Source: Nanobdellota archaeon
GTDB taxonomy: Archaea > Nanobdellota > Nanobdellia > Pacearchaeales > GW2011-AR1
Assembly (NCBI GenBank): GCA_038045365.1
Contig: JBBSYH010000005.1
Coordinates: 12,713 to 64,733 of the forward strand
Direction: 5' to 3'
Length of the DNA stretch: 52,021 nucleotides
This document shows, in pieces, positions 11,700-45,398 of the stretch. How positions within the stretch are numbered: the first letter of the stretch is position 1; every line of letters begins with the position of its first letter. Below the pieces are notes generated by a model. That model made no database searches, was not told the origin of the DNA, and worked only from the letters and a program-made list of their open reading frames with translations. The translations under genes were made by a program, and so were the position numbers.

Positions 11700-12179
11700 A
11701 TATGGATTATATATAAACTTTTCTACAAATTTTTTTACTTTTATAAAGGAACGAATGTTGAGACCCTATTGTTTCTAGTGGAAGTTTGAGATAGATTTAT
11801 AAAGAAATAGAGAGTTTATTGTTTTTAAAATTTATTTAAAAAGATTTATATTATATATTATATTATATTATAATTATTATATTATAAAGTAAATAATACA
11901 ATATAGCTTATGTAATTATTAGATTATAGGATATAATATAATACGCGTTAATGTTTATAATATAGTTTGTTTGTTATAATATTTATAAAAATATAGTTCG
12001 TTGTAATATTTATTTAGTATGTGTTTGGAGTGGAAACCATGGTGTAATGGTTTTTTTACAATATATTAAAGTTAGGAGATTTTTTCTTTATATTTTCGTT
12101 TTTCCATAGGAAATAGAGGCCAGACAATAGATAAATTTATAATTGGGATTGATCAGATTTAAAATATAAAGAGGTAAAA
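11700..12179. other. Putative replication origin (oriC) upstream of orc1/cdc6
   Basis: 480-bp non-coding AT-rich region. ORB-core-like boxes ctAGTGGAAGt (11775-11785) and ggAGTGGAAAC (12027-12037) flank about 240 bp of almost pure A/T. Imperfect direct repeat at about 11959-12013. Dyads AAACCAT/ATGGTTT (12034-12053) and TTTCCataGGAAA (12101-12113). Confidence 0.6.
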
Positions 12180-31264: not shown

Positions 31265-31762
31265 ATGAAAGAAGACATGGTTGAGCACAATATATTCGCG
31301 GAGCCCCTGGCACAGACGATATTTTTATTTATATTTGTTTTTACACTTGTTTTTGCAATATTGCAAAAGTCCCAGATTTTAGGCAAAGAAAAAAAACAAG
31401 TTGATGCACTTATTGGGTTTGCAATAGCAATGATTGTTACGTCAGTAGGATACGCAAGCGATATTATTTCAAGGTTAATTCCATTTTTGGCGGTAAGCCT
31501 AGTCATTATATTTGTTTTCATGATTTTGCTAGGATTTTTTTTCAAAGAAGATAGCTTTGATATTTCTGCCAAGATGAAAGTAGTTTTTGGAATATTTATT
31601 TTTATAGCAGTAGCATCAGCTGTTTTGACAATAGTTGGGGGATGGGACTATATAACTGGCTTATTTAGGGGAGAATTTCTCTTAATTGAAAATATTATCT
31701 TTTTTTTAGTGATAGGCGGAGCAATTGCAATTGTTTTTGCTTTTGACAAAAAGAAATCATAA
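31265..31762 (+). CDS. Membrane protein, paralog 1 of a 3-gene family
   Basis: 165 aa. Shares the N-terminal block with the next two genes (FLFIFVFTLVFAILQKSQILG vs YLLPFLLVFAIVFGILSTTNILG vs YFLPVLSFLVVFAVVYAVFSKTKIV). Confidence 0.4.
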   Translation: MKEDMVEHNIFAEPLAQTIFLFIFVFTLVFAILQKSQILGKEKKQVDALIGFAIAMIVTSVGYASDIISRLIPFLAVSLVIIFVFMILLGFFFKEDSFDISAKMKVVFGIFIFIAVASAVLTIVGGWDYITGLFRGEFLLIENIIFFLVIGGAIAIVFAFDKKKS

Positions 31763-31818
31763 ATAAATGTTCTTTACAGTAACGAAACATATATAAATAA
31801 GATTAAAATTGCATAGGT

Positions 31819-32370
31819 ATGGTTTTAGATATTGGCACCATATTATCACAATGGCAGAGCGGCGGAGTTTTCGATTATTTACTGCCATTTTTACTTGTAT
31901 TTGCAATAGTTTTCGGAATACTTTCAACAACTAATATTTTAGGGGCTAATAAAGGGATAAGCGTGATAATTGCTGTAGTAGTAGGATTATTATCATTAAA
32001 GTTTAATTTTGTTTCAGAGTTTTTTGGTGAAGTTTTTTCGAGACTTGCAGTGGGATTATCTGTTCTGCTTGTTTTATTGATTTTAATAGGGCTTTTTATA
32101 CCGGATGACGAAAGAAGATATTGGTTTTGGGGACTTGGAGCAATAGGAGTTGTGATTGCAATAGTAGTAGTTGCGCAGTCATTTGAAAGACTTGGATATT
32201 ATTCAGGCGTTTATGAAAACTATGCTGGATGGATAATTGGGGCTGTTTTACTTCTTGGACTTATTATTGCAGTAGCTACGAGTGGCGGGAATAAGGACGG
32301 AAGCGGTTCTAGAGGTGCAGGCGGGAGCATTCCTGTGATTGCTAACTTAACTCCTTGGCGCGATAAGTAA
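31819..32370 (+). CDS. Membrane protein, paralog 2
   Basis: 183 aa. Same N-terminal block, 4-5 TM segments, and a Gly/Ser-rich tail. Confidence 0.4.
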   Translation: MVLDIGTILSQWQSGGVFDYLLPFLLVFAIVFGILSTTNILGANKGISVIIAVVVGLLSLKFNFVSEFFGEVFSRLAVGLSVLLVLLILIGLFIPDDERRYWFWGLGAIGVVIAIVVVAQSFERLGYYSGVYENYAGWIIGAVLLLGLIIAVATSGGNKDGSGSRGAGGSIPVIANLTPWRDK

Positions 32371-32375
32371 GGAAA

Positions 32376-32612
32376 ATGGGTGCAATTGAGCTTTCTGGAA
32401 TAATCTATTTTTTACCTGTACTTAGTTTTCTTGTTGTTTTTGCTGTAGTTTACGCAGTTTTCTCCAAGACTAAAATAGTAGAATCACAAGGGCTAAAGAC
32501 TTTTATTGCTTTTCTTTTTGCAACTATTTTTGTTTCGATGAGCGAGGCAAGAATGTATATTTTGAATATTACAATTTGGTTTGCTATATTGGATTTTTTG
32601 AAAGTAAAATAA
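32376..32612 (+). CDS. Membrane protein, paralog 3 (short form, 78 aa)
   Basis: Has the same N-terminal block but stops after about two TM segments. Its stop lies 8 nt before repeat unit A. Confidence 0.35.
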   Translation: MGAIELSGIIYFLPVLSFLVVFAVVYAVFSKTKIVESQGLKTFIAFLFATIFVSMSEARMYILNITIWFAILDFLKVK

Positions 32613-32619
32613 TTTTTTC

Positions 32620-32738
32620 TGATACAGAAAACAAACTCCTGCTTTTAAGCTGGAGTTCTCCGTCGTTTGTTTTCTGTCTAAAAAACTCCAAAAAAACTGC
32701 GGACTTTAGGTCCGCAGATGTCGCAAGGAGTTTTTTAT
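32620..32738. repeat. Structured repeat unit A, copy 1 (two hairpin modules)
   Basis: Matches 45991-46108 with 3 differences. A1 is a 12-bp stem CAGAAAACAAAC/GTTTGTTTTCTG. A2 has outer stem AAAAAACTCC/GGAGTTTTTT and inner stem CTGCGGAC/GTCCGCAG. Confidence 0.9.
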
Positions 32739-32858
32739 TATGTCAAGGAACTTGAAGAAAACCTTGCCTTGAAAGGCAAGGTTGTTCCTTGAGCATCCAA
32801 AAGTCCTAAACAAACCATGGGCTTTAGCCCATGGTCAAACACAAGGACTTTTTGATTT
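32739..32858. repeat. Structured repeat unit B, copy 1 (two hairpin modules)
   Basis: Matches 36224-36343 with 4 differences. B1 has outer stem TCAAGGAAC/GTTCCTTGA and inner stem ACCTTGCC/GGCAAGGT. B2 has outer stem AAAAGTCCT/AGGACTTTT and inner stem CCATGGGC/GCCCATGG. Confidence 0.9.
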
Positions 32859-33526
32859 TAATTTATAGATTTTTGATTCGAAAGGCCTATAAAAGATTTT
32901 TGAGTTTCTATTATTTCCTTCTTAATATCTTCTATGTTAGTCATATATTCCCCGACTTTTTGCAATATTGAAAGTTGCAGCCTATCAATTATTTTCTCAA
33001 TTCTTTTAAGCCTTTCGTCTAAATGCTGCACCATTGACTCCACGTTATTCTTCATATCAAGTATTTCTTCTAGTTTATCTTTTAGAGGAGAGAGCTTTTC
33101 TAGAACTAGTTGTTCTGATATTTCTGTTATTGTATCTGCGCTTAGAGAGCTTGAAGAGTATTGTTCATACTGCGGATTATTAAAATATTGCGATTCAGGA
33201 GGTTCTTGATATTCCTGTTCTGGATATGATTGAAATTCTGATTGAGGAGCAGCTGTTTGTTTAGGAATTTCTTTTTGCTGAACAGGAGGCTCAGGTTCAA
33301 GCGGCTCTTTTTCCAGGAGAGAAGGATGCATACCTATAATATTTACGGATGATTTGTCAGAAGAATTTTCAAAAGCATTCTCTGAAACAGCTTCTTTTAT
33401 TTTTGCCTGAATAAAAACACTATTTATCTCATTTTTAGAAAGTCCGCGCTGCTGCAGAGCGGCAGATATCTCTTCCTCTGATTTTCCTTCATCTTGCATC
33501 CTCTTTATATCTTCAAATGTTCCCAT
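32858..33526 (-). CDS. Coiled-coil protein with a low-complexity linker (possible pilus-locus accessory protein)
   Basis: 222 aa from ATG 33526 (the track extends to TTG 33550). Small N-terminal helical domain, Q/E/P-rich linker, C-terminal heptad-rich region. Divergent from the ATPase gene. Confidence 0.4.
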   Translation of the reverse strand: MGTFEDIKRMQDEGKSEEEISAALQQRGLSKNEINSVFIQAKIKEAVSENAFENSSDKSSVNIIGMHPSLLEKEPLEPEPPVQQKEIPKQTAAPQSEFQSYPEQEYQEPPESQYFNNPQYEQYSSSSLSADTITEISEQLVLEKLSPLKDKLEEILDMKNNVESMVQHLDERLKRIEKIIDRLQLSILQKVGEYMTNIEDIKKEIIETQKSFIGLSNQKSIN

Positions 33527-33527
33527 T

Positions 33528-33830
33528 TTATTTTTGCCTGAATAAATCAAGCTGTCTTTGTATTATCATTAACTCTTCTTTTCTTGCAACATTTCCAAGC
33601 AGTTCTATTACTCTTTGCAAAATTTCCTGAATTCTAGAATTTTCTTCTTTTATTTGGATAATGTATTTTTTAGTCTGCTGTATTTCAGAAAAGTTTTTCT
33701 CTCTTTCTTTAGTAAATGTTTGTCCAAGAAGAGTTACCCTGTCTTTTAGAAGACGCTGTTTTTCCTCTATGTCGCGTATGCGAGTATTGATTTCTAATGT
33801 AAAATTATCTTGTGTATAAACCCCTTCCAT
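33528..33830 (-). CDS. Small coiled-coil protein
   Basis: 100 aa, heptad-rich. Its stop lies 1 nt from the downstream ATG. Confidence 0.35.
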   Translation of the reverse strand: MEGVYTQDNFTLEINTRIRDIEEKQRLLKDRVTLLGQTFTKEREKNFSEIQQTKKYIIQIKEENSRIQEILQRVIELLGNVARKEELMIIQRQLDLFRQK

Positions 33831-33886: not shown

Positions 33887-36217
33887 TTGCAATTTTCGCA
33901 AAACGAAATATATTTAATTATAGAAGATAGAGAATTTCAAGAGCAAAAAATGATATTTAAAGAGGGAAGTCCGCTTTACTCAACTGAAATTGAAAGAAAG
34001 CAAGGAGAGGAGATTATGTATGTAAATTACATGACTGCTCCGTTTGTTCCAAATATAGCAAGCAATCCCAGCGTGATGGCGAGAACAATTGATTTTCTTA
34101 TTGGAAATCAAGGAGTTTCAAGAATAATTTTTGTACAACAGAGGAACTATAATTATCCGTCAGAACAAGTTTTTATGCTCTCTGAAATTGCAAGAATATA
34201 CAATTATTTAGTACAACAGGAAATGCTTCTTTCTCCTGTGAAATTAAGCGTGTTTGGCAATGTACCAGAAGTGCATAGTGATTTAAGCTATATTTTAACT
34301 TTGCTTAAACAAGATCCGTTTGCTTGCTATACAGAGTTAAGAAAGAGAATAAGACTTTTGAGAGAGCAAAATGATTCTGGAGAGGTTATAAACAGAGCAG
34401 GAATAAGTTCTTATATAAGACTTCTTGAAAAGATAGCTAATATGATTGAGGGTACAAAACTTATTCAAATTGCAACTGCGAAAACAGACGGATATTCATT
34501 CGGAAATAGGGAGATTTACAAGACAATTTTCAGGCCAGATGTAATGCCAAATTTTAGTTTTACTAGACTTGTTGCACAATTTCCGCAAGATGCTGAATTT
34601 ATAGATCAGTATGAGATAGAGAGCGAATTTGAAAGTGTTACAGTTAGTATATTGAAAATGAAGAACGATTTAAAATACTTTTATCATTTGATACCTGCAG
34701 AATATTCAATAAGTGAAGAGTACCACATGCTTTTGGAGCTTGCGAGGAATGTTTTAATAGAACATAAGCCAAAAGCGGAAGAATTTACTGATCCAGAGAA
34801 AACACGGCAAGTTTTTTTTAATGTTTCAAGAGATTTACTGGGCGAATTATCAAAAAATAAAGGGATGGAGCTTAGCCATAATGATTTGAACAAACTTGCT
34901 AAAATTTTAGTAAGACATACTATAGGATTTGGACTGATAGAAGTACTTCTCGCAGATAATAAATTGCAGGATATAGTGTTAAATGCTCCAATAGCGCAAA
35001 ATCCTATTTTTGTAAGACATGAAAAATATGATGAATGTGTGACAAATATAATTCCAAGCTATGAAGATGCAGATTCCTGGGCTGCAAAACTGCGTTTGCA
35101 ATCTGGCAGACCATTAGACGAAGCAAATCCTATTTTAGACACTGAATTAATTTTAAGCGAGGGAAGAGCTAGAGTTGCTGCTATAAAAGAACCACTTTCT
35201 CCTTCCGGACTTGCGTATGCTTTTAGAAGACACAGAGATAGTCCATGGACTCTTCCTCTTTTTATAAAAAATAAAATGCTGAATTCTTTTTGTGCAGGAT
35301 TATTAAGTTTTTTAGTTGATGGGAGCAGAACAATGTTAGTAGCTGGAACTAGATCAAGCGGAAAAAGCAGTTTGCTTGGTGCGCTTATGCTTGAAGTTAT
35401 GCCGAATGTAAGAACAATAGTAGTTGAAGACACTCTTGAGCTGGGAGTTGATGTAATGAGAAAAGTTGGGTATGACATTTTAAGAATGAAAGTAAGAAGT
35501 GCACTTGTTTCTGGAACAACAGAAGTGGAAGCATCAGAAGGAATTAGGGCGAGTTTGAGACTTGGAGATTCTGCGCTAATTATTGGAGAAGTAAGATCAA
35601 CTGAAGCAAAGGCCTTGTATGAAGCAATGAGAGTTGGAGCGCTTGCAAATGTAGTTGCTGGAACAATACATGGAGATTCACCCTATGGAGTTTTTGATAG
35701 AGTTGTAAATGATATTGGAATTCCAGAGACAAGTTTTAAGGCAACTGATTTAATAATTATAGCAAATCCTGTAAAGACAGCTGATGGATTGCATTCAAAA
35801 AGAAGATTAGTGAGCTTAACTGAAGTAAGAAAACACTGGACAAAGGACCCGCTAATTGAAAAAGGATTTGTTGATTTATTGAAATATAATGTTGAGAAAG
35901 ATGAGCTTGAGCCTACACAAGAACTGATAAATGGAGAATCTGAAATAATTAAGCAAATAGCTGGAAATGTGAAGGGATGGGCTGGAAATTGGGATGCGGT
36001 TTATGATAATATAATATTAAGAGGAAAAATAAAGCAAGAGATTGTTGATGCAGCGGATAAATATAATAAGCCGGAGATTCTTGAGGCTAGGTTTAATGTT
36101 CTTTCAAACAATGCTTTTCATAGAATAAGCGACGAAGTTCGAGAAGAATATGGCTTGCCTTTAAGCGAACATGTTTTTCCAAGATGGAAGAAATGGCTAT
36201 ATGAGAATATAAAATAA
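33887..36217 (+). CDS. Type IV pilus/archaellum-type secretion ATPase (FlaI/PilB/VirB11 superfamily) with a long N-terminal extension
   Basis: C-terminal ATPase core: Walker A GTRSSGKSS, Walker B/Asp box IVVEDTLEL, IIGEVRSTEA, His box GTIHGDSP. About 400 aa precede the core. Start is uncertain (TTG 33887 or ATG 33950). Confidence 0.8.
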   Translation: MQFSQNEIYLIIEDREFQEQKMIFKEGSPLYSTEIERKQGEEIMYVNYMTAPFVPNIASNPSVMARTIDFLIGNQGVSRIIFVQQRNYNYPSEQVFMLSEIARIYNYLVQQEMLLSPVKLSVFGNVPEVHSDLSYILTLLKQDPFACYTELRKRIRLLREQNDSGEVINRAGISSYIRLLEKIANMIEGTKLIQIATAKTDGYSFGNREIYKTIFRPDVMPNFSFTRLVAQFPQDAEFIDQYEIESEFESVTVSILKMKNDLKYFYHLIPAEYSISEEYHMLLELARNVLIEHKPKAEEFTDPEKTRQVFFNVSRDLLGELSKNKGMELSHNDLNKLAKILVRHTIGFGLIEVLLADNKLQDIVLNAPIAQNPIFVRHEKYDECVTNIIPSYEDADSWAAKLRLQSGRPLDEANPILDTELILSEGRARVAAIKEPLSPSGLAYAFRRHRDSPWTLPLFIKNKMLNSFCAGLLSFLVDGSRTMLVAGTRSSGKSSLLGALMLEVMPNVRTIVVEDTLELGVDVMRKVGYDILRMKVRSALVSGTTEVEASEGIRASLRLGDSALIIGEVRSTEAKALYEAMRVGALANVVAGTIHGDSPYGVFDRVVNDIGIPETSFKATDLIIIANPVKTADGLHSKRRLVSLTEVRKHWTKDPLIEKGFVDLLKYNVEKDELEPTQELINGESEIIKQIAGNVKGWAGNWDAVYDNIILRGKIKQEIVDAADKYNKPEILEARFNVLSNNAFHRISDEVREEYGLPLSEHVFPRWKKWLYENIK

Positions 36218-36348: not shown

Positions 36349-38490
36349 TTATATTGAGATTAGAGCTATGGCTGCCAAAAGCGAAAGAGAAATTATTGAG
36401 ACAAGAGCAGTTATAATATAGAGTGAAATTCCTCTTTTCAAGTTTTTAGAAAGTTCATATTTTTCTTTTAGAGGGTCTTTTCCAGAATCTATTGTTGCTA
36501 ATGCAGAAGTAAGAATAAAAATAATTTCAATGATGTAGATTCCTATTGCAATCTGGATGAAATATGGAGGTATCATTTGAGAAACGTTAAATATTTCAGT
36601 TATTTTTGAGAAGTTTCCAAGTGAATTTGCATTTTCTGCTAAAGAATTTATTTGAAGAGATGACAGCTTGTTTAAAATTATGGTTATCATTGAAGATAAT
36701 CCTACAATAATTCCTGCAAGAAGAGGAGCTAGAAAAGTCATGTTAGATTTCATATCCGAAACTATTTCTGCAAGAAGATCTTTAAGGCGCTGATTGATTT
36801 TCTGAATGTTTTTTAGGTATTCTGAAATTGACATAAGTGATTGGGATGCAATCTGAAGACCTTTTTTGATTGATTCTACCAATATTTTCATGGAAGTCGC
36901 AATTAAAACAGATGGATAATAAATTATTGCGCCTCTTTTCTTGTCGAATATTGCTTTTTCGACAGACATTCCAAATTGCCTGATGTTTTGATTTACGAGA
37001 GAGAAAAAGCTTTGAGTTGTTTGACCCGTAGTTGATTCTGAAACCTTTGCAAAAATCATTTCTGCAGGTATGCCGTCTCCAAGGCGATTGCCTAATTGGA
37101 AAAGAGAATTTGTAAATTCTTCTTCAAGCAATTTTGTTTTTTCTCTTGCTATTATAAGATCCTTTGTTTTTAATGAATAAGCTGTTGAAAAGAAAACAGC
37201 TATAGAGAGAGGTATGAAAAGGCTTAAAAGAACAGCTACAAGTCCAAATGGCCCCACTTTTCCATCTTGGGTTTCTTTAAAGTCAAAAACGTTTAATTCT
37301 GGAAACAAGCTTAATCCGATTTCTCCAAAAGAATAGTCGCTTTTGAGACCAAGAGGCTCCACAATAAAGCCAATTTGGAATATAAAAGGAATTATTCCGA
37401 TGAGGAATAGCGGGAAAGCATATAAAAATGCTTTTTTCCAGGGTTTCTTTGATATAAATTTTGGATAATCTGGATTTAGTTCAAGAATTGAAGATTCTCC
37501 ATAGCCGCCAGGCCGCTTGAGCAGAACTTCTGATGACATGTAAAAAACAATAAATGGGATTATAACATTAAAGACAATGAAAATATGCTGCCATTTTATT
37601 GTTCCTTGAAGAAGAGTAGAAGCCAGCGGAAGGAGAGCAAGGCCAAGAGTTGGGAGGATTATTCCAAGCATGTAGATGTTTGTAAGAGGGGAGCGTATTT
37701 CTCTCGAGTATTTAAGTGTTTTTTCATAAATTCCGTCAAGAATTACTTGCAGCGCTTTTTCAAGAATTTCAATTCTTTTATTTTCTGATGGTTCGTAAAG
37801 AGAGGATTCAATTAAATGAAATGATTCTATGAATTCTGGAGAGTATTCTCTCCAACTTTGCAAATAATTTTCGAGAGATTGTTTCATTGTAGAAAATTTT
37901 CCTATTTCTACATCATAAAATACTTTTTTGAAATCATTAGCAAGAGGGCCCTTGAGATGCTGAGAAGCAAATTCAACAGCTTTTTCCAAGTTTGAAGTGT
38001 GCTTCATGTAAATAACTATATAGAGGATTGAAGGAACCATCTGTGAAGAAGCACTAAGACGCCATGAGTTTGCCAGTCTTTGAGGGAATGTATATGTGTA
38101 ATAAAAAACAAAAATACTTGCTATTAAGCCGAGGAACAGGAAAAGGAGCTGGAAAGAGCCAGAGATAAAGTAAATCGCAGTTGTAATAAGAATTATTGCG
38201 AGGAAAGAGCCAAGCATTGAAAATAGAGAAAGCCCAATTGCCTGGCTCGGAGTAATTTCTATATTTGCTGAGTCGATATATTTTTGCATTTTTACTCTAT
38301 CTTTTTCTGCAACTTTTATTGAAATTATACTGCCTAAAGACTTTGCCCATTTTTCATAGGAAGATGGTTCCCGATACATTTCTTTTTTGAATTTAGAATA
38401 CTCCTGCGAAACATTTTTTGAGGTAGACAAACTAATTTCCTGCTCTATTCTTTTAGAGTATTTTTTTATAATATCTTCTGTCTGCGCCAT
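36349..38490 (-). CDS. FlaJ/TadC/PilC-like polytopic platform protein (T2SS-F family)
   Basis: 713 aa with two blocks of cytoplasmic helical domain plus TM clusters. Positioned between the pilus ATPase gene and the pilin operon. Confidence 0.65.
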   Translation of the reverse strand: MAQTEDIIKKYSKRIEQEISLSTSKNVSQEYSKFKKEMYREPSSYEKWAKSLGSIISIKVAEKDRVKMQKYIDSANIEITPSQAIGLSLFSMLGSFLAIILITTAIYFISGSFQLLFLFLGLIASIFVFYYTYTFPQRLANSWRLSASSQMVPSILYIVIYMKHTSNLEKAVEFASQHLKGPLANDFKKVFYDVEIGKFSTMKQSLENYLQSWREYSPEFIESFHLIESSLYEPSENKRIEILEKALQVILDGIYEKTLKYSREIRSPLTNIYMLGIILPTLGLALLPLASTLLQGTIKWQHIFIVFNVIIPFIVFYMSSEVLLKRPGGYGESSILELNPDYPKFISKKPWKKAFLYAFPLFLIGIIPFIFQIGFIVEPLGLKSDYSFGEIGLSLFPELNVFDFKETQDGKVGPFGLVAVLLSLFIPLSIAVFFSTAYSLKTKDLIIAREKTKLLEEEFTNSLFQLGNRLGDGIPAEMIFAKVSESTTGQTTQSFFSLVNQNIRQFGMSVEKAIFDKKRGAIIYYPSVLIATSMKILVESIKKGLQIASQSLMSISEYLKNIQKINQRLKDLLAEIVSDMKSNMTFLAPLLAGIIVGLSSMITIILNKLSSLQINSLAENANSLGNFSKITEIFNVSQMIPPYFIQIAIGIYIIEIIFILTSALATIDSGKDPLKEKYELSKNLKRGISLYIITALVSIISLSLLAAIALISI

Positions 38491-38579
38491 TCTTTTTTAT
38501 CAGAAAATTAAACAATAGGATGTTATAAATTATGTGGTTTAGACATTAGATTTAATAATCTTGCAATCTATACAAGCAG

Positions 38580-38735
38580 ATGAAAAAAAGAGGACAAACA
38601 GCATGGGACAACCTTATACCTTGGATAATAGGCATAATTGTGCTTGCACTTGTAGTAATATTTTATATGTCTTTATCAGATAAAAGCACAGGAGCATTGA
38701 AATTTATAAGAGACATATTGAGGTTTGGAAAATGA
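38580..38735 (+). CDS. Mini pilin-like protein with a class III signal peptide (51 aa; below the ORF-track cutoff)
   Basis: Translated by hand: MKKRGQTAWDNLIPWIIGIIVLALVVIFYM... KRG|Q followed by a hydrophobic helix. ATGA overlap with the next gene. Confidence 0.5.
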   Translation: MKKRGQTAWDNLIPWIIGIIVLALVVIFYMSLSDKSTGALKFIRDILRFGK

Positions 38736-39415
38736 AAGGAGAATTGCATTTATCTTATTTAATAGGGGGAGTGATTGCAATTTTTGTATTAATAATGGTT
38801 GGAGCATTTGCATATAGTTTTTTTAGCGGAAAAGCAATTCCTTTCTCCAAATATCTGCCAAGTTTTGATTATGAAAATGAAAAGATTGCAGGTGTGGAAA
38901 GCTTTAGGTATTTAATAAGAGAGGATAAAGTGCAGTATTATGATGGGTTGAAATGGAATAATTTTGCAGAAGACAATATTGAGATTAATGAAAAAAATAT
39001 AGGGGAGAAAGAGATTTATGAAAAACTGAAGAATTTTTATTACAGAAGCAGAGACAGGAAGAAAATTGAAATAGAGAGAGGAATTCATGCAATAATTGAT
39101 CCTGAAATTGTTTATTCTGAGAAATTAGATAAAGAGCCAAACGAAAACAGCAGAGGAGATGCTGTGATTTATGTTTATAAAGATAATAAAGTTATAGGAT
39201 GGTACAGCTTTTCTTTGGAGAATAAGCTAACGCCGCACATTGAGCAACAGATTGAACAGAAAATAAATGAGGAAAAAATTATAGAAGAGGCTTTGAGATG
39301 GAGGGATGAGGCAGAAGAGACAATCAGGATTTCTGAAGTAAATGTGTGCCCAGAGAAAGTTGGAGAATATCTAGTAATAAATTTAAGAGAAGAAAAGGAG
39401 AAATGCAATGAATAA
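38732..39415 (+). CDS. Pilin-like protein (class III signal peptide)
   Basis: 227 aa. MKG|ELHLSYLIGGVIAIFVLIMVGAF at the N-terminus, then a hydrophilic domain. Confidence 0.5.
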   Translation: MKGELHLSYLIGGVIAIFVLIMVGAFAYSFFSGKAIPFSKYLPSFDYENEKIAGVESFRYLIREDKVQYYDGLKWNNFAEDNIEINEKNIGEKEIYEKLKNFYYRSRDRKKIEIERGIHAIIDPEIVYSEKLDKEPNENSRGDAVIYVYKDNKVIGWYSFSLENKLTPHIEQQIEQKINEEKIIEEALRWRDEAEETIRISEVNVCPEKVGEYLVINLREEKEKCNE

Positions 39416-39518
39416 AAATGGAATGATAGCCAGTATAATCAAAGATTATCTCCTTTGGATAATTTTTTTGATTATAGCAGGAGCAGTTGTATGGCTTGTA
39501 ATAAAGAATATTGCGTAA
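39408..39518 (+). CDS. Mini pilin-like peptide (36 aa; below the ORF-track cutoff)
   Basis: Translated by hand: MNKNGMIASIIKDYLLWIIFLIIAGAVVWLVIKNIA*. Its start overlaps the upstream stop (ATGAATAA). The first 16 nt are identical to the start of the gene at 41499. Confidence 0.35.
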   Translation: MNKNGMIASIIKDYLLWIIFLIIAGAVVWLVIKNIA

Positions 39519-39549
39519 TTGTTATAAAGCAGGGTTTCTTTGATTGAAG

Positions 39550-40566
39550 ATGGATAAGAAAGGGGAACTTACATCTACACAGATTGTTAGCATTACAATA
39601 GGAATTCTTGCATTAATAACAATGCTTTTTGCCTTGACATTGATTAAATTCGGAGAATATACTGATGAAGAATTATGCAAGCTGTCTGTTTTAGGAAGAG
39701 CGCATGCTGCTGATTCAATACAAGGAAGTTTGCCACTAAAGTGCAGCACAAAAAAAATATGTTTAACTAGGGGAAAAGGAGATTGCAGTGAAAATTTTGC
39801 TGGAGAAGAGATTGAAAAGATAAAGTTGTCTGCAGACGATACAAAAGCCGCGAGATTAATTGAAGAAGTAAGCGCAAGAGAGATGTATAATTGCTGGAGT
39901 ATGATGGGAGAAGGGAAAATTGATTTGTTTGGAAAATATGCTACAAGCAGGGGATTAGAAGTAACTGACAGCACATGTTTGATATGCTCTAGAGTAGCCA
40001 TTGACAAAGGAATAAGCGAGGATGTAATAAAAAAAGTTGATATTCATAGATATATGAAGGAAGAACTGGTTCCTCAAAGCAAGCTGACTTATATACAGAC
40101 TTTTACAGACAAAGTATCTGGAGCATATCCATCTGTTGATAGAGCAGCATATGAAAATGAAGCAAATTCTTTGAGAGAAGGAGATAGTTTATCTGGGAAT
40201 GGAAGAGAAATTGCACTTTTATTTATGCAGATAAAAGCAACCAAGGCTTCTGAAGTTCTTTCAAATCTTGGAAAAGATGTTTTTTTAATTGCAGCAGGAG
40301 GATATTTTGTTAATTTAGGCGCGAAAGGAGTGGCTGGAGTTCTTGTTGGAAAAGCAATCAGATTTATTTTGTTGCCAGTTGCAATAGGGACTGCGCCCGC
40401 AGCAGCTTTGAATGCATATTCTGGACAAATAACTGCTACAGGATATTGCGGCGAGTTTTCAACGAACGATGAGAAAGCAAAGGAAGGATGTTCAATTGTT
40501 CAGGCAATGCCTTATGATGCAAACAGGATAAATAATTTTTGTAAGTCAATAGAGGGAAATCCATGA
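39550..40566 (+). CDS. Pilin-like protein with an additional C-terminal hydrophobic region
   Basis: 338 aa from the ATG (the track starts at TTG 39544). MDKKG|ELTSTQIVSITIGILALITMLFAL. C-terminal Gly/Ala-rich hydrophobic segments (VFLIAAGGYFVNLGAKGVAGVLVG...LLPVAIGTAPAAAL). Confidence 0.5.
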   Translation: MDKKGELTSTQIVSITIGILALITMLFALTLIKFGEYTDEELCKLSVLGRAHAADSIQGSLPLKCSTKKICLTRGKGDCSENFAGEEIEKIKLSADDTKAARLIEEVSAREMYNCWSMMGEGKIDLFGKYATSRGLEVTDSTCLICSRVAIDKGISEDVIKKVDIHRYMKEELVPQSKLTYIQTFTDKVSGAYPSVDRAAYENEANSLREGDSLSGNGREIALLFMQIKATKASEVLSNLGKDVFLIAAGGYFVNLGAKGVAGVLVGKAIRFILLPVAIGTAPAAALNAYSGQITATGYCGEFSTNDEKAKEGCSIVQAMPYDANRINNFCKSIEGNP

Positions 40567-41093
40567 TAAAAAAAGGGCTTTTAGGCCATACTACCAGCAT
40601 AATTATTGCTGTTATAGGGTTGCTTCTGCTTGGAGCAGGCATATATAAAATGTATGGAATATTTAAGGGAGAAGATGAGAATATGAAAAAGACAATTGAT
40701 TCAATAGAAGGTAAAATTAAGAGACTTGAAGATGGAGATAAAGGAAAATTTTTAGTAAGAGGGAATAATAAGTGGTATGTTACTGGATGGAGCGCTGAGG
40801 AGAAGGGAAAGCCGGATAAATGCTATTTAAACAGCTGCATATGCATTTGCAAAGGCAATATTTTTGCAGGAGACGCGCTTTCTGGGGAAAGCTGCCAAAA
40901 AAAAGGATTTTGCAGAATTTTTGAAGAGAAAAAAGTGATAGTAAAGAGCGATCTAATTTTGAAGGCAGTTTATGCTACAGGAGAAAATTCTGCAGAGGGA
41001 ATAGATTCAAGCGGAATAATTTTTAAATCAAATTTAATTGAAATTGAGGTAAAAAAGGAAAAAGACAGCATAGAGGTTTCATATAGAGAATGA
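40563..41093 (+). CDS. Cys-rich pilin-like protein
   Basis: 176 aa. MIKKG|LLGHTTSIIIAVIGLLLLGAGIY. Cys cluster CYLNSCICICKG...SCQKKGFC. ATGA overlap with the upstream gene. Confidence 0.5.
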   Translation: MIKKGLLGHTTSIIIAVIGLLLLGAGIYKMYGIFKGEDENMKKTIDSIEGKIKRLEDGDKGKFLVRGNNKWYVTGWSAEEKGKPDKCYLNSCICICKGNIFAGDALSGESCQKKGFCRIFEEKKVIVKSDLILKAVYATGENSAEGIDSSGIIFKSNLIEIEVKKEKDSIEVSYRE

Positions 41094-41506
41094 TGAATAA
41101 GAAGGGAGAATCTGATTTTGGAGAGATATTGCTTGATAATACTGTTTATGTAATTCTTCTTGCTATTTTTGTTTTCGGAATTTTTGCATTTGTCTATCAA
41201 TTGAAAAATGGCGCAGTGATATGGGAAGACTACTATGCAAAGGAAGTTTCGAAAGTCTTGAATTTTGCAGAGAAAGGAGACAATATAGAAATAGATGTTC
41301 AAAAAGCAAGCGAAATAGCCGGAAAAAACAGAGTTGAATTAAGTGAAATGTTTTCTTTTAAAGAAAATGATGTATGTGTCAAGTTAAGCAAAATAAAGAA
41401 AACATGCTATGTTTATTTTAATGATATTAAGATTTTAAGCAGCAAAATAAAAGAGGGAACTCCTGTAAATATCTTAAGTATACAAATTGGGGGAAAAGAT
41501 GAATAA
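41090..41506 (+). CDS. Pilin-like protein
   Basis: 138 aa. MMNKKG|ESDFGEILLDNTVYVILLAIFVFGIFAF. ATGA overlap with the upstream gene. Confidence 0.5.
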   Translation: MMNKKGESDFGEILLDNTVYVILLAIFVFGIFAFVYQLKNGAVIWEDYYAKEVSKVLNFAEKGDNIEIDVQKASEIAGKNRVELSEMFSFKENDVCVKLSKIKKTCYVYFNDIKILSSKIKEGTPVNILSIQIGGKDE

Positions 41507-41945
41507 AAATGGAAAATTAGGGGATCAGATTTCATTTTTTTATTTTCTTTTTTTAATGATAATAATTGCTCTTGGAATTGCAGGAGGGGCTTATTTATTT
41601 TATGGGGGAGAGCATGATTTTAGAGAAGGGGAGAGCGAAATTCTTACTTATCTAGTTGAAGAATGTATGAAAGAGAAAGATGTGAAATGGGAGAATTTTT
41701 ATGAAGAATGCGGAATTAGCAAGGGAGCAATGGAAAAAGGGAAAATTATATTGAAGATTTGCAAAGAACAGTGCGGAAAAGAAGAAGTTTTTGTTTTTGG
41801 AAGTAATTTTGAAGCATGCGAGTTTAAAGGAGTATTTTCAAACAAAAATTATCCAAAATGCAGCACCAGAAAAACTGAAGTTAAGGGAATAACCTATGAA
41901 ATAATAGCGGGAAGCAATAATTTTGCGAGGAGACAAAATGAATAG
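41499..41945 (+). CDS. Cys-rich pilin-like protein
   Basis: 148 aa from the ATG (the track starts at TTG 41487). MNKNG|KLGDQISFFYFLFLMIIIALGIAGGAY. 8-nt ATGAATAA overlap with the upstream gene. Confidence 0.5.
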   Translation: MNKNGKLGDQISFFYFLFLMIIIALGIAGGAYLFYGGEHDFREGESEILTYLVEECMKEKDVKWENFYEECGISKGAMEKGKIILKICKEQCGKEEVFVFGSNFEACEFKGVFSNKNYPKCSTRKTEVKGITYEIIAGSNNFARRQNE

Positions 41946-42435
41946 AAGGGGACAAATTGATAAAATAATTTCTGCATTGCCTGTAATGATTTTAATTTTC
42001 TTGTTAATGGCTGTATTTGTTTTGCTTTCAAGCGCCATAAAAGTCTGGAAAGATCCAAACAGAGTGGAGATTTTCAGCTTTTCAGGAGGAAAATTTCTAA
42101 GCGAGATTGTGCAAGTCAATGAAAAAGAATATACTATAATAGATGGTCTTGCAAAAAGTGGAAATACACTTGTGCCTAGCAAGCAAAGCGAAGAAGAGAG
42201 AATTTTTTACAGCAAGTTTAGCAAAGAACTTATTAATTTAGCAGGAAAAGAGTGCATGATATTAAAATCCCCAACAAACTTTTTTTATATTCATGAAGGA
42301 ATTTTTGAAAGCACAGGAAATGAGGTAATATTAAAACATTATAGAGATAATGGGAAAATTTCCAGAATTTTACTAAACGTGGGAAAGAGACCTTATCAAG
42401 TTGAATATTATCATGGAGGATGTTTAAATGAATAA
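41938..42435 (+). CDS. Pilin-like protein
   Basis: 165 aa from the ATG (the track starts at TTG 41923). MNRRG|QIDKIISALPVMILIFLLMAVFVLL. 8-nt ATGAATAG overlap with the upstream gene. Confidence 0.5.
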   Translation: MNRRGQIDKIISALPVMILIFLLMAVFVLLSSAIKVWKDPNRVEIFSFSGGKFLSEIVQVNEKEYTIIDGLAKSGNTLVPSKQSEEERIFYSKFSKELINLAGKECMILKSPTNFFYIHEGIFESTGNEVILKHYRDNGKISRILLNVGKRPYQVEYYHGGCLNE

Positions 42436-42880
42436 GCAAGGACACATACCGACAATTCTTATGTTTGTAATTGCACTTGTTTTGTGCGTAACAAGCCTTG
42501 TTTCTTTTGCTAGTTATGGAGAAGTGGTAAGTGTAGACTCAAAGAAAATTTCAAATGCAATTACCAAAGCAGAGTTTCTTCAAGATTATATTTTAAAGAA
42601 CACAGAGATATCTGGAAGAGAAAGCATTATTTCAGAAGGAGAATTAAGAGATAATTTTAAGAAAATAACTGAAAAGAGGAATATTGAAATTGAAGGTGCT
42701 GGAAATTTCTTTGGAAAAGTCAGAAATGACGAGTTTGAGTTCAGAAGAGAGGGAGAAAGGTATTTTCTGATAATTAAAGGATTGTTTGTTGTTTCAGAAA
42801 ACGGAAATAATAAAATAAAGAGAGAATTTGATGTTTTTATGGAATTTGACGGCAACGGGAGATTATTGAACTCTGCATAA
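42428..42880 (+). CDS. Pilin-like protein
   Basis: 150 aa. MNKQG|HIPTILMFVIALVLCVTSLVSF. 8-nt ATGAATAA overlap with the upstream gene. Confidence 0.5.
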   Translation: MNKQGHIPTILMFVIALVLCVTSLVSFASYGEVVSVDSKKISNAITKAEFLQDYILKNTEISGRESIISEGELRDNFKKITEKRNIEIEGAGNFFGKVRNDEFEFRREGERYFLIIKGLFVVSENGNNKIKREFDVFMEFDGNGRLLNSA

Positions 42881-42929
42881 GATTTATAAACAAAAGATAA
42901 GTAAATATTGTATGTTGTTTGAAAAAGAT

Positions 42930-43385
42930 ATGAACAAAAGAGGGCAGGAAGGATTATCTATTACGACGCTTTTGATTATTATTCTAGGGATTGTTGTTGT
43001 AGTTGTCATAATTTTAGGAGTTACAAAGGGCTTTGGTTTTATATTCGGAAAAATAGATTTTCTTCCTGGACAGGATCTTCAGGCAGTTGCCGAATCTTGC
43101 GCTACTGCTGCACAGCTGAAATTAAAGATTGATTATTGCGTTGAATTTAAGAAGATAAAGGTTGATGGGGCAAAGGAATACGTAAACTGCGAGGATTCAA
43201 GAGTAGAAAGTGGAATAAAATCTGAAGTTGAGAAAATAGAGTGTGATAAAGATACAAGTCAGAAATATTGCGAGATTTTAATAGAAAGAAAAGAGTACAA
43301 TGCTAAAGTTAATGGAGTAAATATAGGGAGCAATAAAGACAGCAAAAATACTGCAAAAGAACATTGTGGAAGTATTTTCAAATAA
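42930..43385 (+). CDS. Cys-rich pilin-like protein
   Basis: 151 aa from the second ATG (the track starts at 42912). MNKRG|QEGLSITTLLIIILGIVVVVVIILGV. Six Cys in the soluble domain. Confidence 0.5.
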   Translation: MNKRGQEGLSITTLLIIILGIVVVVVIILGVTKGFGFIFGKIDFLPGQDLQAVAESCATAAQLKLKIDYCVEFKKIKVDGAKEYVNCEDSRVESGIKSEVEKIECDKDTSQKYCEILIERKEYNAKVNGVNIGSNKDSKNTAKEHCGSIFK

Positions 43386-44549: not shown

Positions 44550-45398
44550 ATGGAAGAGTATTATTTTCTTTTTTTTGTTGCATTTTTGTATGTAATATTT
44601 GCGAGTGTGCAGGATTTAAGAAAGAGAGAGGTTGCGGACTGGCTGACTTTTTCTTTAATTGTTTTTGCTTTGGCTTATAGGGCTTTTTATTCTGCAGTAG
44701 AAGACAAGTATAATTTTTTTGTTTTAGGGCTTGCAGGATTTGCATTTTTTTTTGTGCTCGCGCATCTTTTCTATTACGGAAAAGTCTTTGCTGGAGGCGA
44801 TGCAAAACTTTTGATGGGATTTGGAGCAATTCTGCCACTTGAATCATTTGGAGATATTCTTATTAATTCCATGGTTTTCATACTTATTTTATTTTCTTCG
44901 GGATTGATTTACAGCCTAGCCTATAGTTTTTTTATTATAAGTGAAAACAAAAATTTTTTTCCTAGGGCATTTTCAAAAGAAATAAGGGAGAAAAAATATA
45001 TGCTTTATGGTTCTGTCCTGCTTTTTGTGTTTTTTTTCAGTGCAATTATATTTTATAATTTTCCTGTTTTTTCTATTATTTTTTCTGTTGTGCCTTTGCT
45101 GTATATTTATCTCAGGGCCTTTGAGAAGAGCTGCATGATAAAAATAGTGCCTGCAAATAGAGTAGGAATTGGAGATTGGCTGGAAAAAGACATAGTTATC
45201 TCTGGAAGGAAAATAAGAAAGAGCGTTCATGGTTTGAGCAAAGAAGATGTTAAGGCAATAAGGAAAAGCGGAAAAAGAGTCATGATTAAATATGGTGTTC
45301 CCTTTGTTCCAGCTTTTTTAATTACACATATAGTTATGGTATCCTTCTATTTATTTTTAAAGAATGACCTGAGGGCAATATTTTACTTTCTATTTTAA
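44550..45398 (+). CDS. A24-family prepilin/prearchaellin peptidase (PibD/FlaK/EppA-like)
   Basis: 282 aa, polytopic. First Asp box SVQDLRKREVADWL and second Asp box FAGGDAKLLMG, about 60 residues apart. Confidence 0.75.
   Translation: MEEYYFLFFVAFLYVIFASVQDLRKREVADWLTFSLIVFALAYRAFYSAVEDKYNFFVLGLAGFAFFFVLAHLFYYGKVFAGGDAKLLMGFGAILPLESFGDILINSMVFILILFSSGLIYSLAYSFFIISENKNFFPRAFSKEIREKKYMLYGSVLLFVFFFSAIIFYNFPVFSIIFSVVPLLYIYLRAFEKSCMIKIVPANRVGIGDWLEKDIVISGRKIRKSVHGLSKEDVKAIRKSGKRVMIKYGVPFVPAFLITHIVMVSFYLFLKNDLRAIFYFLF

What the first reader, a model, noticed from the sequence alone, without database searches (positions are those of the whole stretch)
38580..43385. Ten-gene translationally coupled operon in which every product starts with a class III (prepilin-like) signal peptide
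All ten consecutive plus-strand ORFs (51, 227, 36, 338, 176, 138, 148, 165, 150 and 151 aa) begin the same way: a short basic leader ending in Gly (KRG|Q, MKG|E, KNG|M, KKG|E, KKG|L, KKG|E, KNG|K, RRG|Q, KQG|H, KRG|Q), followed by a hydrophobic helix of about 20 residues.

That is the substrate signature of archaeal PibD/FlaK-type peptidases, and such a peptidase is encoded at 44550-45398. Outside the N-terminus the proteins look unrelated to each other by eye. Several are Cys-rich.

Seven of the nine junctions are start/stop overlaps, which implies fixed-ratio co-expression. Ten distinct pilin-like subunits in one operon next to a single ATPase/platform pair is an unusually rich set. It is a good candidate for a specialised surface filament or host-attachment structure in a DPANN-type cell.
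Basis: partly seen in the sequence, partly recalled or inferred. Interest (0 to 1): 0.7.

Follow-up and report, generated by a model that had tools for sequence, protein, structure and literature searches.

The report
Ten-pilin type IV filament locus, DPANN
A tiny groundwater archaeon carries a pilus-building gene cluster with ten different, unannotated pilin-like proteins, and the cluster recurs almost unchanged in at least 179 related species, making it the likely main surface appendage of lineages sometimes said to lack such pili.

Summary
Ten consecutive + strand genes (38580-43385) each begin with a 2-5 residue basic leader ending in Gly, followed by a hydrophobic helix of about 20 residues. 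Seven of nine junctions overlap by 4 or 8 nt.

The flanks encode a TadA/FlaI-type ATPase, a FlaK-like A24 peptidase with both catalytic Asp, and a 713-aa membrane protein. This membrane protein is a very divergent PilC/TadC-type platform, shown only through intermediate homologues.

The locus is conserved. A homologue of protein 4 occurs in 179 species genomes. In 44 complete loci there are 7-13 pilin-like genes (mode 10), with the same order and size series. The [KR][KR][G/A] site precedes the first membrane helix in 91% of 588 orthologues, against 11% of other ORFs with an N-terminal helix.

The ten ectodomains are unrelated to each other, to any Pfam or NCBIfam family, and (for the two modelled) to any solved structure. 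Conserved TATA-like versus Shine-Dalgarno-like signals suggest three transcription units (p1-3, p4-9, p10), not one operon.

Best reading: a lineage-specific, so far unclassified archaeal type IV filament system. Cleavage, filament formation and host attachment remain inferred.

The parts
33950..36217 (+). Secretion ATPase of the TadA/CpaF/FlaI family. It is 755 aa (776 aa from the TTG at 33887). About 200-290 extra N-terminal and about 130 extra C-terminal residues lie outside the regions matched in solved homologues.
   Evidence: Pfam T2SSE 1.2e-12. PDB sequence hits: afGspE 2OAP 4e-29, CpaF 7e-20, FlaI 2e-14. NCBIfam TadA, FlaI and BasE models all score below their cut-offs. Present next to the pilin block in 50 loci.
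36349..38490 (-). Polytopic 713-aa membrane protein, a highly divergent PilC/TadC/FlaJ-type platform. It is transcribed divergently from p1.
   Evidence: No direct T2SSF hit. It belongs to a family with 1040 representatives at the 50% identity level. Of 33 diverse full-length members, 14 hit PF00482 T2SSF, best 3.2e-10. It is 56-71% identical across 21 loci. At least 3440 clusters exist, almost all named 'hypothetical'.
38491..38579 (.). Divergent intergenic region between the platform gene and p1. It holds a TATA-like TTTAATAA about 27 nt upstream of the p1 ATG and no SD-like motif, so it is a candidate promoter for a near-leaderless p1 transcript.
   Evidence: Sequence. A TATA-like box occurs at -38..-19 in 71% of p1 orthologues and an SD-like motif in 12%.
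38580..38735 (+). p1, a 51-aa mini pilin-like protein (MKKRG|Q...). The mature form would be 46 aa: one helix plus a short basic tail, with no globular domain. It is similar in size to Flp/EpdE-type pilins.
   Evidence: Orthologues in 62 loci, all with the site.
38732..39415 (+). p2, a 227-aa pilin-like protein (MKG|E...). It is the most length-variable family: 227-460 aa among aligned orthologues, and up to 772 aa at the same position in other loci.
   Evidence: No Pfam domain even in the long versions. SD-like GAGG at -12.
39408..39518 (+). p3, a 36-aa pilin-like mini-protein (MNKNG|M...). The mature form would be about 31 aa, essentially a single helix.
   Evidence: A 35-48 aa ORF with the motif sits at this position in most loci. 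phmmer finds orthologues in 22 loci.
39519..39549 (.). A 31-nt gap before p4 containing TTATAAAG about 24 nt upstream of the ATG and no SD-like motif. Candidate internal promoter.
   Evidence: A TATA-like box occurs in 78% of 78 p4 orthologues and an SD-like motif in 10%.
39550..40566 (+). p4, a 338-aa pilin-like protein (MDKKG|E...). It has 10 invariant Cys, a confidently modelled alpha/beta ectodomain, and a conserved hydrophobic Gly/Ala-rich segment at residues 236-298.
   Evidence: 41 homologues, all hypothetical. Alignment A1. AF2 mean pLDDT 74, pTM 0.73, N-terminal helix at residues 9-31. No fold match in PDB or BFVD. Hydrophobic segment analysed.
40563..41093 (+). p5, a 176-aa pilin-like protein (MIKKG|L...) with 6 conserved Cys.
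   Evidence: Orthologues in 70 loci. SD-like GAGGG at -11.
41090..41506 (+). p6, a 138-aa pilin-like protein (MMNKKG|E...) with a 12-residue acidic spacer before the helix.
   Evidence: Orthologues in 76 loci.
41499..41945 (+). p7, a 148-aa pilin-like protein (MNKNG|K...) with 4 invariant Cys.
   Evidence: Orthologues in 70 loci. SD-like GGGGG at -10.
41938..42435 (+). p8, a 165-aa pilin-like protein (MNRRG|Q...). Its N-helix is better conserved than its ectodomain.
   Evidence: phmmer orthologues in 30 loci, and a motif-bearing ORF of similar size at this position in most others.
42428..42880 (+). p9, a 150-aa pilin-like protein (MNKQG|H...).
   Evidence: Orthologues in 53 loci. SD-like GGAGG at -13.
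42881..42929 (.). A 49-nt gap before p10 containing TTTATAAA centred about 25 nt upstream of the alternative ATG at 42912, and no SD-like motif. Candidate separate promoter for p10.
   Evidence: A TATA-like box occurs in 65% of 84 p10 orthologues and an SD-like motif in 10%.
42930..43385 (+). p10, a 151-aa pilin-like protein (MNKRG|QEG...; 157 aa from 42912). It has a conserved N-terminal half and a variable C-terminal half, and is present in 2-3 copies in many loci. It is the favoured candidate for the major subunit.
   Evidence: N-helix pairwise identity 0.40 against 0.23 for the rest of the protein. AF2 mean pLDDT 82, helix at residues 11-41 plus a small alpha/beta head. No PDB fold match.
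44550..45398 (+). A24 aspartic prepilin/preflagellin peptidase of the short FlaK/PibD type, 282 aa.
   Evidence: Pfam Peptidase_A24 5.5e-12. FlaK 3S0X 3.7e-10. NCBIfam FlaK_Arch 2e-13, below its cut-off. D22 and G82-G83-D84 are invariant in 16 orthologues. Found downstream of the pilin block in 53 loci.

Best explanation
The region is the pilin module of a lineage-specific archaeal type IV filament (TFF) system, found in DPANN archaea labelled Pacearchaeota, Woesearchaeota or Nanoarchaeota.

Proposed mechanism:
1. The ten proteins insert into the membrane with the N-terminus inside and the C-terminus outside.
2. The adjacent FlaK/PibD-type A24 peptidase removes the 2-5 residue basic leader after the conserved [KR][KR][G/A] (inferred).
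3. The mature N-terminal helices are then extracted from the membrane and polymerised by the TadA/FlaI-type ATPase acting through the divergent 713-aa PilC-like platform (inferred from homology).

Proposed organisation (inferred):
- p4-p9 are overlapping, Shine-Dalgarno-led genes. They are probably made in roughly equal amounts and form a minor-pilin complex that primes or tips the filament.
- p10 is separately promoted and often duplicated, with a conserved N-terminal half and a variable C-terminal half. It is the best candidate for the major subunit.
- The 46-residue mature p1 is the alternative candidate, by analogy with Flp/EpdE-type pilins.
- The disulfide-rich ectodomains with no detectable relatives are the exposed surface. 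They plausibly mediate adhesion to surfaces or host cells.

Shown here: gene content, motif conservation, synteny, catalytic residues, and the N-terminal helices in two models. Inferred: cleavage, assembly, stoichiometry and biological role.
For: - All ten genes carry the motif, and it is essentially confined to them in the window.
- In alignments built only from homology searches, the Gly at -1 is at least 90% conserved and otherwise Ala, preceded by K/R (p4, p10).
- Across 80 loci, 580 of 589 orthologues keep [KR]x0-1[GA] followed by a hydrophobic helix.
- The same site precedes the first TM in 91% of family ORFs against 11% of 270 other N-terminal-TM ORFs in the same loci (Fisher 6e-120).
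- The sites resemble experimentally mapped archaeal sites: KG|Q in Epd pilins, and KA|I and RA|L in Ups and Aap (PMC4371748).
- The core machinery is adjacent: ATPase, platform by transitive T2SSF homology, and A24 peptidase with invariant D22 and GGD84.
- The order ATPase, platform, p1...p10, A24 is kept in dozens of species. In 44 complete loci there are 7-13 motif-bearing genes (mode 10), with a conserved size series.
- Even numbers of conserved Cys in five of the six Cys-bearing families fit extracytoplasmic disulfide-bonded domains; p10 has five columns at the 80% cut-off.
- AF2 places a long N-terminal helix ahead of a folded head in p4 and p10.
- SD-like and TATA-like signals split the block into p1-3, p4-9 and p10, here and in orthologues.
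Against: - No family hits any pilin, archaellin or class III Pfam/NCBIfam model.
- The p4 and p10 heads match no solved pilin.
- Many of the proteins have a polar spacer of 3-12 residues between the putative site and the hydrophobic helix, which is longer than in textbook pilins.
- p3, p7 and p9 in this genome have N or Q at -2.
- The platform is recognised only transitively.
- The whole ~20 kb neighbourhood, including EF1B and RPA, is syntenic in this lineage. Adjacency of the peptidase is therefore weaker evidence of functional linkage than it looks.
- p4 carries a second hydrophobic segment, which is odd for a filament subunit.
- FlaFind and SignalP were not run, and there are no expression or proteomic data.
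Confidence: 0.7

Rival explanations
1. The same machinery and processing operate, but the product is not a long pilus. It would be a short pseudopilus or a membrane-proximal multi-subunit surface complex, like the T2SS pseudopilus or the Sulfolobus bindosome. The ten different ectodomains would be displayed or pushed through the cell envelope, for example for secretion, substrate capture or a cell-cell contact site.
For: - Ten unrelated ectodomains with a strictly conserved order and translational coupling look more like a fixed-stoichiometry complex than a homopolymer.
- No subunit stands out clearly as the major one. p1 and p3 are little more than membrane helices.
- p4 has an extra hydrophobic segment that could keep it in the membrane.
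- Class III signals are known on non-filament proteins such as bindosome subunits (PMC4371748; preprint 10.64898/2026.04.22.720090).
Against: - p10 shows the hallmarks expected of a major pilin: its own TATA-like box, duplication, and a conserved N-helix with a variable C-terminal half.
- No substrate-binding or enzyme domains were detected in any of the ten families.
Confidence: 0.17
2. The system is chiefly a DNA-uptake (competence-type) pilus. It would serve nucleotide scavenging in a cell with minimal biosynthesis, as proposed for the type IV pili of CPR bacteria.
For: This rests on analogy only. Ultra-small groundwater organisms are reported to carry competence genes and pilin-like genes together (PMC9938205). 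The competence ATPase ComGA is among the weak matches of the ATPase.
Against: No ComEC, ComEA or DprA-like gene was seen in the locus or among the window ORFs that were scanned. No DNA-binding domain was detected in any pilin-like protein. The ATPase is closer to the TadA, CpaF and FlaI families than to ComGA.
Confidence: 0.08
3. The ten proteins are ordinary uncleaved signal-anchor (type II) membrane proteins or Sec substrates. Their basic-Gly N-termini and their position beside the ATPase, platform and peptidase would reflect only the general synteny of these small genomes.
For: - Positive residues ahead of a TM helix are generic.
- The wider neighbourhood, housekeeping genes included, is syntenic.
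- No known pilin family or fold is matched.
- The polar spacers after the putative site are atypical.
Against: - The G/A immediately after the basic residues is conserved in all ten unrelated families. It is about eight times more frequent than in other N-terminal-TM ORFs of the same loci.
- The hydrophobic stretch is at least 19 residues and begins within 18 residues of the start. Visual inspection of the N-termini printed shows no Ala-x-Ala-type site after it, but SignalP was not run.
- The platform gene changes orientation between subgroups yet stays adjacent to the block.
- A complete TFF core with no other candidate substrates in the window would otherwise be left without a filament protein.
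Confidence: 0.05

Closest known systems
Epd pilus locus of Methanococcus maripaludis (archaeal TFF 'System 1' / Makarova clade 1)
   Same: - Both are multi-gene clusters. The Epd locus has 11 genes in one transcription unit, and combines an ATPase, platform, dedicated peptidase and several different pilin-like proteins.
- Epd processing sites are KG|Q, as in p1, p8 and p10.
- The major Epd pilin lacks a globular domain, as p1 does.
- System 1 is reported in some DPANN archaea.

   Different: - Here there is one 713-aa platform gene instead of two.
- The peptidase is a short FlaK/PibD-like enzyme rather than the large EppA type.
- There are ten rather than about five locus-encoded pilin-like proteins.
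- No sequence or profile similarity of any of the ten to known pilin families was found.
- ATPase clade membership was not tested.
Minor-pilin / pseudopilin sets of bacterial T4aP and T2SS (FimU-PilVWXE with PilY1; GspH-I-J-K)
   Same: Both consist of several different class III-signal proteins encoded as a tight operon, with mutually dissimilar globular parts. In the bacterial systems these are thought to form an equimolar priming or tip complex for a filament made of one major subunit (established knowledge; PMC7541494, listed). The p4-p9 block has the same genetic logic.
   Different: - The leader here is archaeal in type: basic at -2, with no conserved Phe at +1 or Glu at +5.
- The locus holds six to nine candidate minor subunits rather than four or five.
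- There is no structural match.
- There is no outer-membrane secretin.
Aap and Ups pili of Sulfolobales and PilA pili of Haloferax (archaeal T4P with PibD)
   Same: All have a FlaK/PibD-type peptidase, a FlaI/TadA-type ATPase, a polytopic platform, and [KR][GA]| processing sites.
   Different: Those loci encode one to three pilins, and according to Makarova et al. typical archaeal pilins are all-beta, Ig-like (PMC4858521). The p10 model head is mainly helical, the p4 head is alpha/beta and Cys-rich, and there are ten families.
Type IV pili of Saccharibacteria / CPR episymbionts
   Same: This is an ecological analogy. In both cases ultra-small episymbionts carry pili that mediate host binding (PMC9894109 and PMC12206443, listed).
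   Different: The CPR machinery and pilins are bacterial in type. There is no homology beyond the shared TFF core.

Membership tests
Type IV filament (TFF) superfamily system | PilB/TadA/FlaI-family secretion ATPase in the locus | tested here: met
   PF00437 1.2e-12. afGspE 4e-29, CpaF 7e-20, FlaI 2e-14.
Type IV filament (TFF) superfamily system | Polytopic PilC/TadC/FlaJ (T2SSF) platform protein | tested here: inconclusive
   The window protein does not hit T2SSF itself. However, 14 of 33 full-length homologues do, best 3.2e-10. Homology is therefore shown only transitively.
Type IV filament (TFF) superfamily system | A24 aspartic prepilin peptidase with two catalytic Asp (second in GxGD) | tested here: met
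   PF01478 5.5e-12. FlaK 3S0X 3.7e-10. D22 and GGD84 invariant.
Type IV filament (TFF) superfamily system | [quoted passage not shown] | tested here: met
   Tested with a rule-based proxy, not FlaFind. All ten window genes pass. 580 of 589 orthologues pass. 91% of family ORFs pass against 11% of controls. Caveats: N or Q at -2 in p3, p7 and p9 of this genome, and polar spacers of 3-12 residues.
Type IV filament (TFF) superfamily system | Leader actually cleaved, and subunits assembled into a filament | not testable with these tools
   Needs proteomics, a biochemical cleavage assay, or cryo-ET.
Known pilin/archaellin sequence families (Pfam and NCBIfam models such as Arch_flagellin, archaeal pilin N-terminal, class III signal and Flp families) | Significant match to the family HMM | tested here: not met
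   None of the ten window proteins matches. Among 139 orthologues there is only one weak Arch_flagellin hit, at E = 0.017.
Type IV pilin fold | Extended N-terminal alpha-helix followed by a globular head | tested here: met
   AF2 gives a helix at residues 9-31 in p4 and 11-41 in p10, each followed by a folded domain. Only two of the ten proteins were modelled.
Type IV pilin fold | Head domain structurally similar to a solved pilin or archaellin | tested here: not met
   Foldseek against the PDB gives a best E of 0.37 for p4 and 0.65 for p10, with TM at most 0.23 by query length and no pilin among the hits.
Epd pilus / archaeal TFF System 1 | Two separate platform genes and a dedicated large EppA-type peptidase | tested here: not met
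   There is a single 713-aa platform gene. The peptidase is 282 aa and its best matches are FlaK.
Epd pilus / archaeal TFF System 1 | ATPase falls in clade 1 of the archaeal secretion-ATPase tree | not tested
Sec (class I) signal peptide | Hydrophobic core of 7-15 residues followed by an Ala-x-Ala-type cleavage site | tested here: not met
   Hydrophobic windows of at least 19 residues with mean Kyte-Doolittle 2.15-3.47. AF2 models them as helices of 23-31 residues. SignalP was not run.

The most novel reading that the evidence does not exclude
The locus may encode a DPANN-specific cell-cell contact machine rather than a simple adhesion pilus. In this reading a TFF motor extrudes a short filament whose tip complex (p4-p9) carries p4. 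The conserved Gly/Ala-rich hydrophobic hairpin of p4 (residues 236-298) emerges from a disulfide-locked ectodomain and inserts into the host membrane. This would anchor the symbiont, or open the contact site through which these metabolically minimal cells draw on their host.
Probability: 0.1. Interest if true: 0.9.

Novelty: new variant of a known kind. Interest (0 to 1): 0.62.

Why it matters
Woesearchaeota and Pacearchaeota are among the most abundant and diverse DPANN archaea in groundwater and sediments. None is cultivated, and how they contact hosts or surfaces is unknown.

Routine annotation of this locus sees only an ATPase and a peptidase. The platform and all ten pilin-like genes are called 'hypothetical'. 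One groundwater study (preprint version) even used pili as a marker for CPR bacteria, on the grounds that type IV pilus components are 'missing in DPANN genomes' (10.1101/2020.05.14.094862).

A conserved 13-gene type IV filament locus in at least 179 species would have several consequences:
- It would change how ultra-small piliated cells in cryo-EM images are assigned.
- It would probably account for a sizeable share of the lineage-specific families of unknown function noted for these phyla (module 98 in PMC8204110; the link itself was not tested).
- It would add a subsystem to the archaeal TFF classification, which is still built on arCOG models from 2016.
- It would provide concrete targets (p10, p1, p4) for metaproteomics, antibodies and structural work.

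Tried and rejected
- Pfam and NCBIfam scans of the ten proteins, of long p2 orthologues, and of 139 orthologues from all ten families found no informative hit.
- Direct sequence and profile searches of the platform against the PDB gave only a non-significant alignment to the EpsF/GspF cytoplasmic domain, E 0.7.
- Foldseek of the p4 model against PDB and BFVD, and of p10 against PDB, gave no match. A viral fusion-protein-like fold for p4 is therefore not supported.
- Paralogy among the ten families was tested with hhalign on the parts after the TM helix and rejected.
- The paper describing FlaFind (PMC1797317) is not held. I did not apply its exact pattern and used my own rule plus a control set instead.
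- The supplementary table of lineage-specific families in PMC8204110 is not held, so the link to 'module 98' is untested.
- Synteny is not in itself proof that the peptidase belongs to the system, because the surrounding housekeeping genes are equally syntenic.
- The two conserved cytoplasmic proteins and three small membrane proteins upstream of the ATPase were considered as accessory components. They have no family hits and nothing beyond synteny links them to the system.

Full report
**Observation**

The ten + strand ORFs exist as described, at 38580-43385, with lengths 51, 227, 36, 338, 176, 138, 148, 165, 150 and 151 aa. Junction gaps are -4, -8, +31, -4, -4, -8, -8, -8 and +49 nt. The public assembly that contains this sequence is a Hainich groundwater MAG, GCA_964368685.1. 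Its gene caller made the same ten calls, differing only in using the upstream ATG at 42912 for the last gene.

Each product begins M-x(0-3)-[KRNQ]-[KRNQ]-G. A window of at least 19 residues with mean Kyte-Doolittle hydropathy 2.15-3.47 follows within 18 residues.

A scan of all 1236 candidate starts of ORFs of at least 30 aa, in six frames, finds this motif at the ten genes. Otherwise it occurs only at four internal or tiny ORFs. The clustering is therefore far beyond chance.

**Surroundings**

Upstream lie two core genes.
- A 755-aa secretion ATPase: PF00437; best solved relatives are afGspE, CpaF and FlaI. TadA, FlaI and BasE NCBIfam models all score below their cut-offs.
- A divergently transcribed 713-aa polytopic membrane protein with no direct family hit.

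An exhaustive phmmer search shows that the membrane protein belongs to a large family, with 1040 representatives at 50% identity. Of 33 diverse full-length members, 14 match PF00482 T2SSF, best 3.2e-10. I therefore read it as a very divergent PilC/TadC/FlaJ-type platform. A profile search found at least 3440 clusters, almost all labelled 'hypothetical protein' from Woesearchaeota or Nanoarchaeota.

Downstream, after an AI-2E transporter on the other strand, lies a 282-aa A24 peptidase. It is homologous to M. maripaludis FlaK (3S0X, 3.7e-10). D22 and G82-G83-D84 are invariant in 16 orthologues.

The window is clearly archaeal. It encodes Orc1/Cdc6, PolD DP1 and DP2, EF1B and S3Ae.

**Conservation**

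Protein 4 has 41 database homologues, all hypothetical. They share a conserved [KR][KR]G[EDQ] N-terminus and ten invariant Cys.

A scan of one genome per GTDB species found relatives of p4 in 179 species, and 80 loci were fetched. phmmer of all window proteins against ORFs of those loci recovers a conserved order: ATPase, platform, p1, p2, (p3), p4, p5, p6, p7, (p8), p9, p10 (1-3 copies), (AI-2E), A24, HIT.

A more distant subgroup has the platform gene inverted but still adjacent, with the order p1, p5, p4, p6, (p7), p10.

I counted motif-bearing ORFs between the platform and the peptidase in 44 complete loci. The count ranges from 7 to 13, with a mode of 10. The size series is conserved, roughly 52 / 270-500 / 38 / 350 / 200 / 145 / 155 / 185 / 160 / 150 aa. 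The two mini-proteins are therefore real, conserved genes.

One caveat applies. The whole ~20 kb neighbourhood, including EF1B and RPA, is syntenic in this lineage, so synteny alone does not prove that the peptidase belongs to the system.

**Are the N-termini class III signals?**

- In the homology-derived alignments of p4 and p10, the Gly at -1 is at least 90% conserved and otherwise Ala, preceded by K/R.
- Across all ten families, 580 of 589 orthologues keep [KR]x0-1[GA] followed by a hydrophobic helix. K or R dominates at -2 and -3, and Q, E or D is common at +1.
- As a control, the same site precedes the first TM in 91% of 588 family ORFs. It does so in only 11% of 270 other ORFs of at least 100 aa with an N-terminal TM in the same loci (Fisher 6e-120).
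- The architecture matches what is described as critical for archaeal SPase III substrates, namely positions -2, -1 and +1 (PMC3387779).
- It also matches mapped sites such as KG|Q in Epd pilins and KA|I and RA|L in Ups and Aap (PMC4371748).

There are deviations. p3, p7 and p9 of this genome have N or Q at -2, although their family consensus is K/R. Many of the proteins have 3-12 polar, often acidic, residues before the hydrophobic helix. I could not run FlaFind or SignalP, and the FlaFind paper is not held.

**The ectodomains**

Profile-profile comparison of the parts after the TM helix gives at most 3% probability for every family pair that could be scored (36 pairs; p3 has almost no sequence after its helix). 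The families are therefore not detectable paralogues. No member hits any Pfam or NCBIfam pilin or archaellin model. Long p2 orthologues, up to 772 aa, contain no known domain.

Conserved Cys counts are 2 in p2, 10 in p4, 6 in p5, 4 in p7, 2 in p8 and 5 in p10, which fits extracellular disulfides.

- The AF2 model of p4 has mean pLDDT 74 and pTM 0.73. It has an N-terminal helix at residues 9-31 and a confident alpha/beta domain. A low-confidence segment lies at residues 243-293.
- The AF2 model of p10 has mean pLDDT 82. It has a helix at residues 11-41 and a small, mainly helical head.
- Neither model matches any PDB chain, and p4 matches nothing in BFVD.

The low-confidence p4 segment lies within residues 236-298, a conserved, moderately hydrophobic stretch that is 52% G/A/S/T/P. 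It remains unexplained.

**Expression logic**

SD-like GGAGG-type motifs precede p2, p3 and p5-p9, the genes with overlapping junctions. p1, p4 and p10 lack them and instead have TATA-like boxes about 24-30 nt upstream of a start codon.

The pattern holds across orthologues. A TATA-like box occurs in 71%, 78% and 65% of p1, p4 and p10 orthologues, against 6-32% for the other families. An SD-like motif occurs in 10-12% of p1, p4 and p10 orthologues, against 28-90% for the others.

I infer three units: p1-p3, p4-p9 and p10. Consensus matches in AT-rich DNA are not proof.

p10 has several features expected of a major subunit. It is often present in 2-3 copies. Its N-terminal half is conserved and its C-terminal half is variable. 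Its N-helix is better conserved than its head, 0.40 against 0.23 pairwise identity. It is therefore my favoured candidate for the major subunit. p1, with a 46-aa mature form and no globular domain, is the alternative.

**Comparison with what is known**

The core is that of the TFF superfamily. The closest described system is the Epd pilus, or System 1, of Methanococcus, an 11-gene unit with several pilins and KG|Q sites that is also reported in some DPANN. This locus differs in three ways:
- it has one platform gene rather than two;
- its peptidase is FlaK-like rather than EppA-like;
- none of its ten pilin-like families matches a known family.

The genetic logic of p4-p9 resembles bacterial minor-pilin and pseudopilin operons.

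The current archaeal TFF census uses arCOG-derived models from the 2016 classification. It had to treat DPANN genomes in unordered mode, and it does not describe this locus. A groundwater preprint stated that type IV pilus components are missing in DPANN genomes; that wording was not found in the published version. Literature searches found no description of this cluster.

**Verdict**

I class it as a new variant of a known kind: an unclassified, lineage-wide TFF subsystem with ten pilin-like families that have no detectable relatives.
- Confidence that the ten proteins are peptidase-processed components of this machinery: about 0.8.
- Confidence that it builds an adhesive filament: about 0.5.
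- Interest: 0.62.

Noticed in passing
window 40255-40443 (p4 residues 236-298): A hydrophobic segment of about 63 residues, 52% G/A/S/T/P, is conserved in character in all 30 p4 homologues. AF2 models it poorly (pLDDT 31-42). It sits between a confident Cys-rich ectodomain and C-terminal strands that pack back onto that domain. It could be a second membrane anchor or a membrane-inserting loop.
   Followed up: partly
window 31265-33830: Three small membrane proteins (165, 183 and 78 aa, + strand) and two cytoplasmic proteins (222 and 100 aa, - strand; the 100-aa one looks coiled-coil by eye) lie directly upstream of the ATPase. They have no Pfam or NCBIfam hit but are syntenic in 25-40 related loci. 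They may be accessory components or may simply reflect conserved gene order.
   Followed up: partly
window 11846-18365: An Orc1/Cdc6 gene (12180-13385) is followed by PolD small and large subunit genes with overlapping junctions. AT-rich tandem repeats at 11846-11887 lie just upstream, which makes this a candidate replication origin. GC skew does not change sign there.
   Followed up: no
whole window: GC skew on the + strand is positive in 25 of the 26 2-kb bins and zero in the other (0.00-0.42). It stays positive over most minus-strand genes: mean +0.17 for - genes against +0.33 for + genes. The asymmetry is therefore not only a coding-strand effect.
   Followed up: partly
L043:7116-9434, L081:6955-9003, L066:7161-8978 and others (p2 position): The second gene of the block varies from 227 aa in this window to 772 aa in relatives, with no recognisable domain. 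A fast-evolving, expandable subunit might be the specificity or adhesin component.
   Followed up: partly
L080 (VGLO01000042.1) and protein P0244: One locus carrying the archaeal pilin block is deposited as 'Candidatus Staskawiczbacteria bacterium' (CPR). One platform homologue is labelled 'Armatimonadota bacterium'. These are most likely mis-binned DPANN contigs.
   Followed up: no
window 1-103 and 170-910: A perfect 48-nt tandem repeat (2.1 copies) lies at the window edge. It is followed by an ORF with a Lamin Tail Domain (PF00932, 7e-14), possibly another surface protein.
   Followed up: no
L049:944-4747: In one related locus the ATPase ORF is 1267 aa instead of about 755 aa. This could be a fusion or an assembly or start-codon artefact.
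   Followed up: no
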